IMG/VR virus record: IMGVR_UViG_3300031576_000005
Location: 95,143-159,142 of that record
Strand: one strand, 5' to 3'
DNA: 64,000 nucleotides
From: a virus
The position numbers and the translations under genes are program-made. This document shows, piece by piece, positions 60,685 through 62,202 of this stretch (position 1 is the first letter of the stretch; each line of letters opens with the position of its first letter). The notes beneath the pieces were generated by a model that did no database searches, was not told where the DNA came from, and saw only the letters and a program-made list of their open reading frames with translations.

Positions 60685-61639
60685 ATGACGGGGAGTGAAA
60701 ATTATTATTCTAGGCGTGGGTATAAACCCATTGGAAAAAAAATATGTGAATGTTGTGGTATTGAAATGATTATTTATTTACAAAGAGATTTATTACGTAA
60801 GAGATTTTGTTCTAGGAAGTGTTTCGGAATAGTTAATTGTAAAGAAAATAATTTAAGACCACCAATACCAAAAAGTACAAAAGTAAAAGAAATTAAAATA
60901 ATTTGTAAAAAAATAAAGAAAAATATTATTAAAAAGCCCCCCTCGCATAATCGAGAAATATTTTTGTAAATTATGTGGTAAACAAATATGTAAAAATGGT
61001 AAAACCGGTTTATGTCTTATATGTTTCGATAAGGGAAGAACTAAGAATATTGATTTTAAATGTGAGTTTTGTAATAAGGATGCAAAATTAAAACCAAGCT
61101 ATTTTAAAGATAGAAAATATCGTTTTTGTTCTAAGCCGTGTTATCTTAAGATTCTAGAATTATCAAGTAAGTCTCGAATAAAATTTAATTGTGAATTTTG
61201 TAATAAGGAAATTATTCGATATAAAAGTCTGCTAAATGGGAAAAGAAAATTTTGTTCATATAAATGTTGTTGTGAATTTTATAAAAAAACGGGTAAAGAA
61301 AGTCAATTTTATATAGATGGAAGAACTCCATTGAGAAAATTAATTAAAAATTGTGAAAAATATAAACAATGGCAACGTTCTTGTTTCACAAGAGATAATT
61401 GGATGTGTGTTAAATGTAAAAATAAAAATAAATTACATGTACATCATCTTAGAAGATTCTCAATAATATATAATGATTTTTTATTAAAATATTCTCATCT
61501 TTCTCCAGAAAAAGACAAAGAAGAGCTTAATATGTTATCCAGAGAATATAATGATTTTTGGGATATTTCTAATGGTCAAACCTTATGTTATTTATGCCAT
61601 CAGAAAGAACATCCGGAAATAAATTTAACTTTAAAATAA
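60685..61639 (+). pseudogene. Multi-zinc-finger HNH endonuclease with one +1 frameshift (within 60917-60966, C6 run at 60937-60942)
   Basis: CECCG..FCSRKC, then in the next frame CKLCG, CEFC..FCSKPC, CEFC..FCSYKC, YKQW..RDNWMCVKC..HVHH..NGQTLCYLCH. Confidence 0.8.
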
Positions 61640-61661: not shown

Positions 61662-61865
61662 ATGCCGTTAGTAAAACCAACGGAAGGCGAAAAAGAGCAG
61701 GAATTCATCTCTAGATGTATGGAAAATAAAGAATCTAATAAAAAATTTCCAAACCAAAAGCAGCGAGCCGGAGTCTGTTTTTCACTTTGGAAGAAATCTA
61801 AAAAGAAAAAATCAAAAGCTTCCGAGGATTCCATAGAAGATATTGATATAATTATTTTAGATTAA
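61662..61865 (+). CDS. Small conserved-looking phage protein
   Basis: MP..KP..GE..EFISRCM..QRAGVCFSLW. Confidence 0.75.
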   Translation: MPLVKPTEGEKEQEFISRCMENKESNKKFPNQKQRAGVCFSLWKKSKKKKSKASEDSIEDIDIIILD

Positions 61866-61934
61866 TAGCCACCCTGGTTTGCCAGGTTCTCAGCCCCCAG
61901 AGGACTGCGTCTTAATACATTAAACTAGTGGCTA
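61866..61934 (-). tRNA. Non-canonical tRNA-Gln(CUG)-like cloverleaf
   Basis: TAGCCAC TA GTTT-AATGTATTA-AGAC G CAGTC-CTCTGGG-GGCTG AGAA CCTGG-CAAA-CCAGG GTGGCTA: 7/4/5/5-bp stems, U8, A14, U33, U1-A72; no D-loop GG, 4-nt T-loop, no encoded CCA. Confidence 0.7.
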
Positions 61935-61938
61935 AACA

Positions 61939-62202
61939 TTAATCTGTAGTTACCGTGGTAGTCGGTACGACTACAGCGGGTGTAACTACGACACTCCTTC
62001 GTCCGAGGCGATTTGGGGGGACTCCCAAGCGTTTGCGAAGATGTAATATAGTCAATGGAGAAACTTTTAATTCTTTACCATTAACTAAAATTCGTTTTTC
62101 TGTGATTGAGGTGGCAATAGCCTTATTTGATTGTGTCCAATCAACAACAACTCCTTCTGGCACTACGAATGCCTTACGACCGCGTTTTGTATTAGTACTC
62201 AT
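61939..62202 (-). CDS. Small basic putative DNA-binding protein
   Basis: KRGRK, HTH-like SNKAIA..VSPLTILHLRKRLG, Val/Thr-rich tail. Confidence 0.6.
   Translation of the reverse strand: MSTNTKRGRKAFVVPEGVVVDWTQSNKAIATSITEKRILVNGKELKVSPLTILHLRKRLGVPPNRLGRRSVVVTPAVVVPTTTVTTD

What the first reader, a model, noticed from the sequence alone, without database searches (positions are those of the whole stretch)
61866..61934. Elbow-less tRNA-Gln(CUG)-like RNA with intact stems
Seen: all four cloverleaf stems pair fully (7/4/5/5 bp, two G-U pairs that only work on minus), with U8, A9, A14, C32, U33, a CUG anticodon and U1-A72. Both halves of the elbow are gone: the D-loop AATGTATTA has no GG and the T-loop is only CAAA. 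G37 and G38 could pair with U33 and C32 to leave a 3-nt loop. No CCA is encoded. Known: U1-A72 is typical of bacterial tRNA-Gln, and the D/T-loop elbow is read by RNase P, the ribosome and T-boxes. Inference: intact stems with coordinated loop loss argue against random decay. It may be a decoy for host anticodon nucleases or synthetases, a processing signal, or a mitochondrial-style minimal tRNA that standard scanners would probably miss.
Basis: partly seen in the sequence, partly recalled or inferred. Interest (0 to 1): 0.7.

Follow-up and report, generated by a model that had tools for sequence, protein, structure and literature searches.

The report
Elbow-less tRNA-derived cloverleaf RNA in phages
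The tRNA-shaped sequence is real and is kept by selection in at least eight related T4-like phages, but it has no conserved anticodon, so it is a tRNA-derived structural RNA attached to a small gene's message and not a working glutamine tRNA.

Summary
The minus strand of 61866-61934 folds as a perfect 7/4/5/5 cloverleaf, and ARAGORN and Rfam do not call it. Pairing alone is not significant: simulated genomes give 0.32 perfect cloverleaves each.

Conservation decides the case. The same element lies 4-6 nt after the stop codon of a small helix-turn-helix gene, on the same strand, in 7 of 8 uncultured T4-like phage contigs (about 103 nt in the eighth). In these contigs 92% of cells pair, 13 of 16 pairs have changes on both sides, and slid controls pair at 33-55%.

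Conserved features:
- U8, A14, A21 and Y11-R24
- the AGAA junction
- G52G53/C61C62
- a 4-nt T-loop (7 of 8)
- D-loops without GG

Features that are not conserved:
- the "anticodon arm", a hairpin of 10-28 nt with loops of 3-11 nt
- the pairs 1-72 and 2-71

The family model cross-hits a genuine phage tRNA-Ile, which points to tRNA ancestry.

My best reading (about 0.45) is a cis-acting element at the 3' end of a message or between cistrons. It most likely acts as an exonuclease-resistant cap. Function is inferred, not shown.

The scan has noted analogous tRNA-like punctuation elements on other DNA, but no sequence look-alike of this one.

The parts
61859..61945 (-). Whole element: cloverleaf plus outer closing helix
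   Evidence: RNAfold of the element with 16-nt flanks; family model R1 scores 73 bits here and finds no other copy in the genome
61939..61945 (-). Outer helix, 5' strand; includes the stop codon (61939-61941) of the helix-turn-helix gene
   Evidence: Summed outer-helix length over 7 members is 41 against 29.5 in shuffles, with 6 of 2000 shuffles as high. Not universal.
61935..61938 (-). U-rich 4-nt bulge between the outer helix and the acceptor-like stem
   Evidence: U-rich 2-4 nt bulges occur at the same place in other members
61928..61934 (-). Acceptor-like stem, 5' strand (pairs with 61866-61872)
   Evidence: The inner four pairs form in all 8 members and pair 3-70 in 7 of 8, with compensatory changes. 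The outer two pairs form in only 3-4 of 8.
61926..61927 (-). U8 (invariant) and A9
   Evidence: Alignments A4 and A8
61909..61925 (-). D-like arm: 4-bp stem (61922-61925 with 61909-61912) and 9-nt A/U-rich loop without GG; A14 and A21 invariant
   Evidence: 100% of cells paired, and 4 of 4 pairs have changes on both sides. G-U cells occur only on this strand.
61908..61908 (-). Purine at position 26
   Evidence: A or G in 7 of 8 members, absent in L086
61891..61907 (-). Hypervariable hairpin in the place of the anticodon arm (17 nt here; folds as 7 bp with a 3-nt loop)
   Evidence: Length is 10-28 nt and loops 3-11 nt across the family. No conserved loop sequence.
61887..61890 (-). Conserved 4-nt junction AGAA (variable-loop position)
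   Evidence: AGAA in 7 of 8 members, AGAU in one
61873..61886 (-). T-like arm: 5-bp stem with invariant G52G53/C61C62 and a 4-nt loop (61878-61881)
   Evidence: 100% of cells paired, and 3 of 5 pairs have changes on both sides. The loop is 4 nt in 7 of 8 members.
61866..61872 (-). Acceptor-like stem, 3' strand; no CCA follows
61859..61865 (-). Outer helix, 3' strand; on the plus strand this is the last codons and the stop of the convergent 67-aa gene
61939..62202 (-). Small helix-turn-helix protein gene (87 aa) whose stop codon directly precedes the element
   Evidence: Family alignments A3 and A6. The same domain occurs as tandem HTH repeats in longer proteins that match Pfam HTH families.
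61662..61865 (+). Convergent 67-aa gene of unknown function; partner on the far side of the element in 6 of 8 phages
61331..61639 (+). HNH homing endonuclease gene, an insertion specific to this phage (context only)
   Evidence: Pfam HNH and PHROG HNH families; absent at this place in L003

Best explanation
The element is a tRNA-derived cloverleaf RNA that no longer decodes. It is transcribed as the tail of the mRNA of a small helix-turn-helix gene in a clade of uncultured T4-like phages.

It keeps the tRNA core:
- the 2/1/4/0 junction
- U8, A14, A21 and Y11-R24
- the D stem
- the acceptor/T coaxial stack with G53-C61

It has lost the D-loop/T-loop elbow and any fixed anticodon. In most members it is sealed by extra pairing between its 5' leader, which contains the stop codon, and its 3' trailer.

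I propose that it acts in cis as a compact, nuclease-resistant structure. It would define and protect the 3' end of the upstream message, or separate cistrons where the next gene runs the same way. Loss of the elbow, the absence of a free 3' end and the outer helix would keep the tRNA-processing enzymes from cutting it off.

Shown here: the structure, its conservation, its position, its strand and its likeness to a tRNA. Inferred: transcription as RNA, the barrier function and resistance to RNase P and RNase Z.
For: Structure and selection:
- Eight members were found behind the same gene family.
- On a sequence-only MAFFT alignment, 92.2% of cells pair and 13 of 16 pairs have changes on both sides. 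0 of 500 shuffles reach the observed percentage paired, the number of pairs with changes on both sides or the covariation score; slid controls pair at 33-55% (7-sequence version).
- RNAalifold finds the same three helices on its own.
- An eighth member that was not used for training scores 46.9 bits.

Strand: the only non-Watson-Crick cells in the conserved part of the stems (D stem, T stem and acceptor pairs 4-7) are G-U on the strand of the HTH gene, four cells in the D stem.

tRNA ancestry:
- The family model's only hit at E <= 0.1 in four other T4-like phage genomes is a genuine tRNA-Ile(UAU), at 25.7 bits and E = 6.8e-4.
- That tRNA shares its D arm almost base for base, and its T stem, with member L003.
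- In that phage, tRNAs alternate with small ORFs.

Not a decoding tRNA.

Cis position: the element begins 4-6 nt after the stop codon in 7 of 8 members, and it is single-copy in the genome.

Barrier rather than cleavage signal:
- The outer helix is supported in aggregate (6 of 2000 shuffles) and is absent from real phage tRNAs.
- The TψC motif that defines plant t-elements is missing (PMC1920247).
- In relative L004 the same slot holds a simple 12-bp hairpin that contains a CUUCGG motif instead. That is the very stable hairpin type first found in T4 mRNA (PMC4371310).
Against: - There are no expression data, so transcription and the RNA ends are unknown.
- A mere exonuclease barrier does not obviously need a weak A/U-rich 4-bp D stem, U8/A14/A21 or the AGAA junction. 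These are nevertheless the best-conserved parts, which hints at recognition by a factor that reads the tRNA core.
- The outer helix is weak or absent in L085 and L086.
- The sense and antisense strands fold about equally well, and only 4 of 118 paired cells are G-U. Function of the complementary transcript, or of the DNA, is not excluded.
- The family has only eight members. Four are Logan assemblies of runs SRR216864xx (L003, L081, L083, L085, L086 give five of the eight by that prefix).
Confidence: 0.45

Rival explanations
1. Processing signal of the t-element type. The element recruits RNase P and/or RNase Z, which cut the polycistronic early transcript at its borders, as genuine tRNAs do where they alternate with ORFs in related phages.
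For: - The tRNA core and the acceptor/T stack are conserved.
- An ORF-tRNA-ORF arrangement occurs in a related T4-like phage.
- The element lies between co-directional genes in L083 and L090.
- The phage's own tRNA has no encoded CCA, so it needs 3' processing and CCA addition by host enzymes.
Against: - The T-loop/D-loop elbow, which these enzymes use, is absent in all members (known biochemistry of bacterial RNase P, RNase Z and the CCA-adding enzyme; my knowledge).
- Plant t-elements keep a perfect TψC arm (PMC1920247).
- Leader-trailer pairing buries both would-be cleavage sites.
Confidence: 0.18
2. Trans-acting mimic of the tRNA core. A stable small RNA is released from the message and binds or titrates a host or phage protein that reads the tRNA body, not the anticodon or the elbow. 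Candidates are a modification or repair enzyme, or a defence factor that targets tRNA.
For: - The conserved single-stranded nucleotides are exactly those of the tRNA core (U8, A14, A21, purine 26, the AGAA junction), while the loops that other machines read are dispensable.
- Position 9 varies together with pair 12-23. A9 goes with U12-A/G23 and C9 with C12-G23, the latter in 2 of 2 cases.
Against: - No promoter or terminator of its own.
- No evidence of excision.
- Relative L004 manages with a plain hairpin in this slot.
- Anticodon-nuclease decoys are excluded by the hypervariable arm.
Confidence: 0.17
3. Binding site for the neighbouring helix-turn-helix protein, or another cis-regulatory switch around its stop codon. 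This would give autoregulation of the gene it follows.
For: - Gene and element are strictly linked, 4-6 nt apart in 7 of 8 members.
- The stop codon lies inside the outer helix.
- The protein is very basic.
Against: - The domain is an ordinary DNA-binding HTH.
- L004 has the gene without the element.
- A regulatory site behind the stop codon is unusual.
Confidence: 0.08
4. Plain transcription terminator or convergent-transcription buffer whose cloverleaf shape has no significance, or a DNA-level structure that marks a recombination boundary.
For: - It sits between convergent genes in 6 of 8 phages.
- Gene content beyond it varies: an HNH insertion here, and different genes in L083 and L090.
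- Pairing is almost entirely Watson-Crick, so both strands can fold.
Against: - No U-tract on either strand.
- It is retained between co-directional genes, with only 6 nt to the next start codon in L090.
- Compensatory changes keep a weak D stem that adds little stability.
- The G-U cells are strand-specific.
Confidence: 0.08
5. A working minimal tRNA-Gln(CUG) that standard scanners miss.
For: In this one phage the arm can be drawn as 5 bp with a 7-nt loop, U33 and CUG, together with U1-A72. ARAGORN in mitochondrial mode calls it Gln(ctg).
Against: - Arm length and loop are not conserved in relatives.
- Pairs 1-72 and 2-71 are not conserved.
- No CCA and no free 3' end.
- No Rfam tRNA match was listed at E <= 10 (family-corrected) for any of seven members, or at E <= 1 in a search of the whole genome.
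- No elbow for the ribosome or RNase P.
Confidence: 0.02

Closest known systems
Canonical bacterial and phage tRNA (Rfam RF00005), for example the tRNA-Ile(UAU) of a T4-like IMG/VR phage at L089 1501-1572
   Same: Four-way junction with 2/1/4/0 linkers; U8, A14, A21, Y11-R24 and G53-C61; a 4-bp D stem and a 5-bp T stem. D-arm sequence and T stem are nearly identical to member L003.
   Different: No 7-nt anticodon loop and no conserved anticodon. T-loop of 4 nt without TψC. No G18G19. Only 4-5 conserved acceptor pairs. No CCA or free 3' end. Not detected by ARAGORN or RF00005.
Plant mitochondrial t-elements (tRNA-like processing signals at mRNA ends; PMC1920247)
   Same: Non-decoding tRNA-like folds located directly at the ends of protein-coding messages. 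Probably derived from tRNA genes.
   Different: t-elements are defined by a perfectly conserved TψC arm motif, and are cut by RNase P and RNase Z with C or CCA added. Here that motif is missing and the ends are base-paired.
Very stable CUUCGG-type hairpins of T4 mRNA (PMC4371310) and intercistronic or 3' stabiliser hairpins in general
   Same: Position at the end of a cistron in a T4-like phage. In relative L004 a hairpin with this motif occupies the same slot.
   Different: Those are simple hairpins. This is a four-arm fold with conserved tRNA-core nucleotides.
tRNA-like modules of other non-coding RNAs: tmRNA, bacterial Y RNAs (YrlA; PMC4201824, title only), and mascRNA of MALAT1 (my knowledge)
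   Same: A tRNA-shaped part without a decoding anticodon, used for something other than translation.
   Different: Those modules keep a canonical T-loop/elbow and are recognised by tRNA enzymes. No Rfam family matches here.
Metazoan mitochondrial tRNAs with reduced D- and T-loops (my knowledge)
   Same: Weak or absent elbow interaction with all stems intact.
   Different: They keep a strict 7-nt anticodon loop and are aminoacylated. This family does not keep the loop.

Membership tests
Decoding tRNA (RF00005) | Cloverleaf with acceptor, D, anticodon and T stems and 2/1/4-5/0 junctions | tested here: met
   The conserved acceptor is only 4-5 bp.
Decoding tRNA (RF00005) | 5-bp anticodon stem, 7-nt loop with U33 and an anticodon conserved among orthologues | tested here: not met
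   The arm is 10-28 nt and the loops 3-11 nt, with unrelated sequences.
Decoding tRNA (RF00005) | 7-nt T-loop (T54 ψ55 C56 ... A58) and G18G19 in the D-loop, forming the elbow | tested here: not met
   The T-loop is 4 nt in 7 of 8 members and 6 nt in one. No D-loop has GG.
Decoding tRNA (RF00005) | Core tertiary nucleotides U8, A14, A21, Y11-R24, G53-C61 | tested here: met
   Invariant or class-invariant in 8 of 8 members.
Decoding tRNA (RF00005) | Score at or above the family threshold, or a call by ARAGORN | tested here: not met
   Only the permissive mitochondrial mode calls it.
Decoding tRNA (RF00005) | Single-stranded discriminator plus CCA (encoded or added), and aminoacylation | not testable with these tools
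   CCA is not encoded and the trailer pairs with the leader. Addition of CCA and charging need experiments.
Plant-mitochondrial-type t-element | Conserved TψC arm motif (GGTTCRANYCC) | tested here: not met
   The definition is in PMC1920247. The T-loops here are 4 nt.
Plant-mitochondrial-type t-element | Borders coincide with mRNA ends made by RNase P or RNase Z | not testable with these tools
   No transcript data for these uncultured phages.
Intrinsic (Rho-independent) terminator | G+C-rich hairpin followed directly by a U-tract | tested here: not met
   No site at the element in the scan. The downstream sequences of 6 members printed lack a U-run.
Any curated RNA family (Rfam 15) | Match to a covariance model | tested here: not met
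   No match at gathering scores in the window, and only chance-level snoRNA or miRNA hits at E <= 10.

The most novel reading that the evidence does not exclude
A new class of phage non-coding RNA: a tRNA stripped of everything that the translation and processing machines read (anticodon loop, elbow, free CCA end), but kept as a tRNA core. It would be released from the message and bound by a host or phage factor that recognises the tRNA body. It might, for example, titrate a tRNA-directed defence or modification enzyme.
Probability: 0.17. Interest if true: 0.8.

Novelty: new variant of a known kind. Interest (0 to 1): 0.6.

Why it matters
The family shows that a tRNA gene in a virus of bacteria can be converted into a structural RNA that keeps only the core of the L-shape. 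Known tRNA mimics such as tmRNA, Y RNAs, t-elements and mascRNA do the opposite: they keep the acceptor/T-loop 'top half' and elbow. This family therefore offers a natural experiment on what the tRNA core alone is good for, and on which enzymes need the elbow. It is also a new, easily modelled RNA motif that tRNA finders and Rfam both miss. If it stabilises or punctuates early messages, it adds a mechanism to T4-type post-transcriptional control.

Tried and rejected
Searches that found no relatives:
- blastn of the region against GenBank phages: no match.
- Exact DNA patterns of the element in IMG/VR: no match.
- The degenerate T-arm pattern in JGI metagenomes: 22 hits, all chance matches in G+C-rich coding DNA.
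- The search for related loci with the 87-aa, the 163-aa and the HTH-family profile in IMG/VR: nothing.
- A first word-based protein search with the 87-aa protein found only itself. A profile of four members was needed.
- 49 IMG/VR loci with homologues of the 67-aa gene carry no copy of the element.

Other dead ends:
- A loose home-made cloverleaf scan was uninformative, with far too many hits.
- MAFFT misaligned a first three-sequence set.
- The AlphaFold2 model of the HTH protein was poor (pLDDT 58), so no fold search was run.
- No canonical terminator or promoter lies at the element.

Readings rejected:
- Decoding tRNA-Gln and anticodon-nuclease decoy, because the arm is hypervariable.
- Known ribozyme or riboswitch families, because Rfam gives no hit.
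- A repeat family, because the element is single-copy.

Full report
**What is there.** The window is the right-hand 64 kb of a 159-kb uncultured virus record. It is 32% G+C, almost all genes lie on the minus strand, and it is T4-like. Its NrdA is 52% identical to that of cyanomyoviruses and lies next to a gp61-type primase. Relatives carry rIIB and PhoH nearby.

The finding lies in a 73-nt gap between two stop codons. On the minus strand an 87-aa gene ends at 61939. On the plus strand a 67-aa gene ends at 61865, preceded by an HNH homing endonuclease gene.

RNAfold returns the cloverleaf as the minimum-energy structure, with the 'anticodon' hairpin zipped to a 3-nt loop. The plus strand folds less well.

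**Is it more than chance?** Taken alone, no.
- ARAGORN and Rfam see no tRNA or any other family here. ARAGORN's mitochondrial mode calls it Gln(ctg), but among 33 mostly spurious calls.
- My scan finds it to be the only perfect 7/4/5/5 cloverleaf in the genome. Markov-1 genomes of the same size give 0.32 per genome, and 42 of 150 have at least one.

**Relatives.** DNA searches and the first protein searches found nothing. The 67-aa neighbour has homologues in Logan assemblies. Two of their contigs, L003 and L005, carry the same cloverleaf in the same gap.

The 87-aa neighbour is also syntenic. A profile of it found five more members, whose contigs gave three more full copies and one copy cut by a contig end. 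A final look-up from an exhaustive profile search gave an eighth full copy, L090. It was not used to train the model and scores 46.9 bits.

In seven of the eight contigs the element begins 4-6 nt after the stop codon of the small gene, on the same strand; in L085 about 103 nt intervene.

**Covariation.** These counts are on a MAFFT alignment that was not fitted to any structure.
- 92.2% of cells form standard pairs.
- 13 of 16 pairs have changes on both sides.
- 0 of 500 column shuffles reach the observed percentage paired, number of pairs with changes on both sides or covariation score.
- Sliding the partners by 1-3 columns drops pairing to 33-55% (seven-sequence version).
- RNAalifold independently predicts the same acceptor, D and T helices.

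The D and T stems pair in every cell. The inner four acceptor pairs form in all members and pair 3-70 in 7 of 8. Pairs 1-72 and 2-71 form in only 4 and 3 of 8.

The only non-Watson-Crick cells in the conserved part of the stems (D stem, T stem and acceptor pairs 4-7) are four G-U cells, on the strand of the small gene.

**What is and is not conserved.**
- Conserved: U8, A14, A21, Y11-R24, a purine at 26, the junction AGAA (AGAU once), G52G53/C61C62, a 4-nt T-loop in 7 of 8 members (6 nt in L086), and D-loops of 5-9 nt that never contain GG.
- Not conserved: the arm at the anticodon position. It is 10, 13, 14, 16, 17, 18, 20 or 28 nt long, with loops of 3-11 nt and unrelated sequences.

So the CUG, U33 and C32 of this window are accidents of one member.

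Position 9 tracks pair 12-23. A9 goes with U12-A/G23 and C9 with C12-G23. With eight sequences this is only suggestive.

**tRNA ancestry.** A covariance model of the family (R1) finds a single copy in this genome. It finds none in 49 IMG/VR loci that carry homologues of the 67-aa gene.

In four large T4-like IMG/VR genomes its only hit at E <= 0.1 is a genuine tRNA-Ile(UAU) inside a tRNA/ORF array, at 25.7 bits and E = 6.8e-4. That tRNA and member L003 share the D arm almost base for base and an identical T stem.

The converse does not hold. No Rfam tRNA match was listed at E <= 10 for seven members; L090 was not searched.

I conclude that the family descends from a phage tRNA gene. It lost the elbow and the anticodon and has since evolved under selection for the rest of the fold.

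**Extra anatomy.** With flanks included, most members extend the closing stem by an outer helix of 5-9 bp, separated by a U-rich 2-4-nt bulge on the 5' side. Its 5' strand contains the stop codon of the small gene. Summed over seven members it exceeds shuffled flanks (41 against 29.5; 6 of 2000 shuffles as high). It is weak in L085 and L086. Real tRNAs of these phages show no such pairing.

**Context.** The small gene encodes a basic helix-turn-helix domain. The same domain occurs 4-10 times in tandem in longer proteins that match Pfam HTH families.

Beyond the element:
- Six phages have the convergent 67-aa gene.
- L083/L084 and L090 have a co-directional gene. In L090 its start codon lies 6 nt after the element.
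- No U-tract follows the element on either strand.
- Relative L004 has both genes with no gap and no cloverleaf. Instead, a 12-bp hairpin containing a CUUCGG motif lies in the last codons of the HTH gene.

**Mechanism.** The facts fit a cis-acting RNA structure at the end of the HTH gene's message.

Three observations favour a stable 3' cap or intercistronic stabiliser:
- the plain hairpin that takes its place in L004
- the sealed ends
- the missing elbow, which bacterial RNase P, RNase Z and the CCA-adding enzyme use (my knowledge), and which plant t-elements keep as a perfect TψC arm (PMC1920247)

Such a structure would resist tRNA-processing enzymes and would not be cut out by them.

The conserved tRNA-core nucleotides and the carefully maintained weak D stem are not explained by stability alone. 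They keep two rivals alive: cleavage by tRNA enzymes, and a released RNA that is read by a factor recognising the tRNA body.

None of this can be settled without transcript mapping.

**Comparison and novelty.** The closest known things are tRNAs themselves, plant mitochondrial t-elements, the tRNA-like modules of tmRNA, Y RNA and mascRNA, and T4's stable hairpins. The family fails the defining tests of each (see the membership table).

The papers I could search describe phage tRNA-like candidates only in general terms (PMC10690425). None describes this element.

Earlier notes of this scan report other tRNA-like punctuation elements and tRNA-shaped modules with unconserved decoding loops in other phages. 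They are analogous in idea but different in anatomy. A look-up by sequence found no look-alike.

**Verdict.** A real, conserved, tRNA-derived RNA motif: a new variant of the tRNA-like structure theme. Its function is unproven.

Noticed in passing
Outside the window: genome C1:375-445 minus strand (L001 375-445): The phage's only standard tRNA has a UCA anticodon (opal-suppressor type; ARAGORN labels it SeC; RF00005 37.9 bits). Yet the genome uses the standard code, and TGA ends 42 of 156 long ORFs. If the contig ends join, it lies about 2.4 kb upstream of the element on the same strand.
   Followed up: partly
window 61331-61639 (+): An HNH homing endonuclease gene lies in the small plus-strand block. 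It is absent at this place in the syntenic relative L003, so it is a recent insertion next to the cassette.
   Followed up: partly
window 61662-61865 (+) and loci L010-L058: The 67-aa protein belongs to a widespread phage family of unknown function, with two invariant cysteines, an FP.Q.QR motif and a lysine run. 49 IMG/VR loci carry it, with no Pfam or PHROG match.
   Followed up: partly
window 61939-62202 (-); proteins P0016-P0019, P0022: The small HTH domain of the upstream gene recurs as 4-10 tandem copies in proteins of 200-900 aa elsewhere in metagenomes. The window's copy has a 12-aa insertion inside the HTH region.
   Followed up: partly
L085 2786-2888: In this relative about 100 nt of strongly folding sequence lie between the stop codon and the cloverleaf (RNAfold -48.6 kcal/mol for the 188-nt stretch). 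It may be a former coding tail or a second RNA.
   Followed up: no
window 61665-61683 (-): The only terminator-like site near the element (8-bp stem plus a T-rich tail) lies about 180 nt downstream on the minus strand, antisense to the start of the 67-aa gene. Shuffles give 0.5 such sites, so it may be chance.
   Followed up: no
window 61944-61950 and 61970-61976: A 7-bp inverted repeat lies in a locally G+C-rich stretch, inside the part of the HTH gene that encodes its Thr/Val-rich tail.
   Followed up: no
L082 1468-1483: This Logan contig ends in an Illumina adapter sequence, which cuts the element there. It is an assembly artefact.
   Followed up: no
L089 1162-2128: A T4-like IMG/VR phage has a tRNA array (Gln, Ile, His, Gly) interleaved with 59-86-aa ORFs. 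This is the kind of arrangement from which the element could have arisen.
   Followed up: partly
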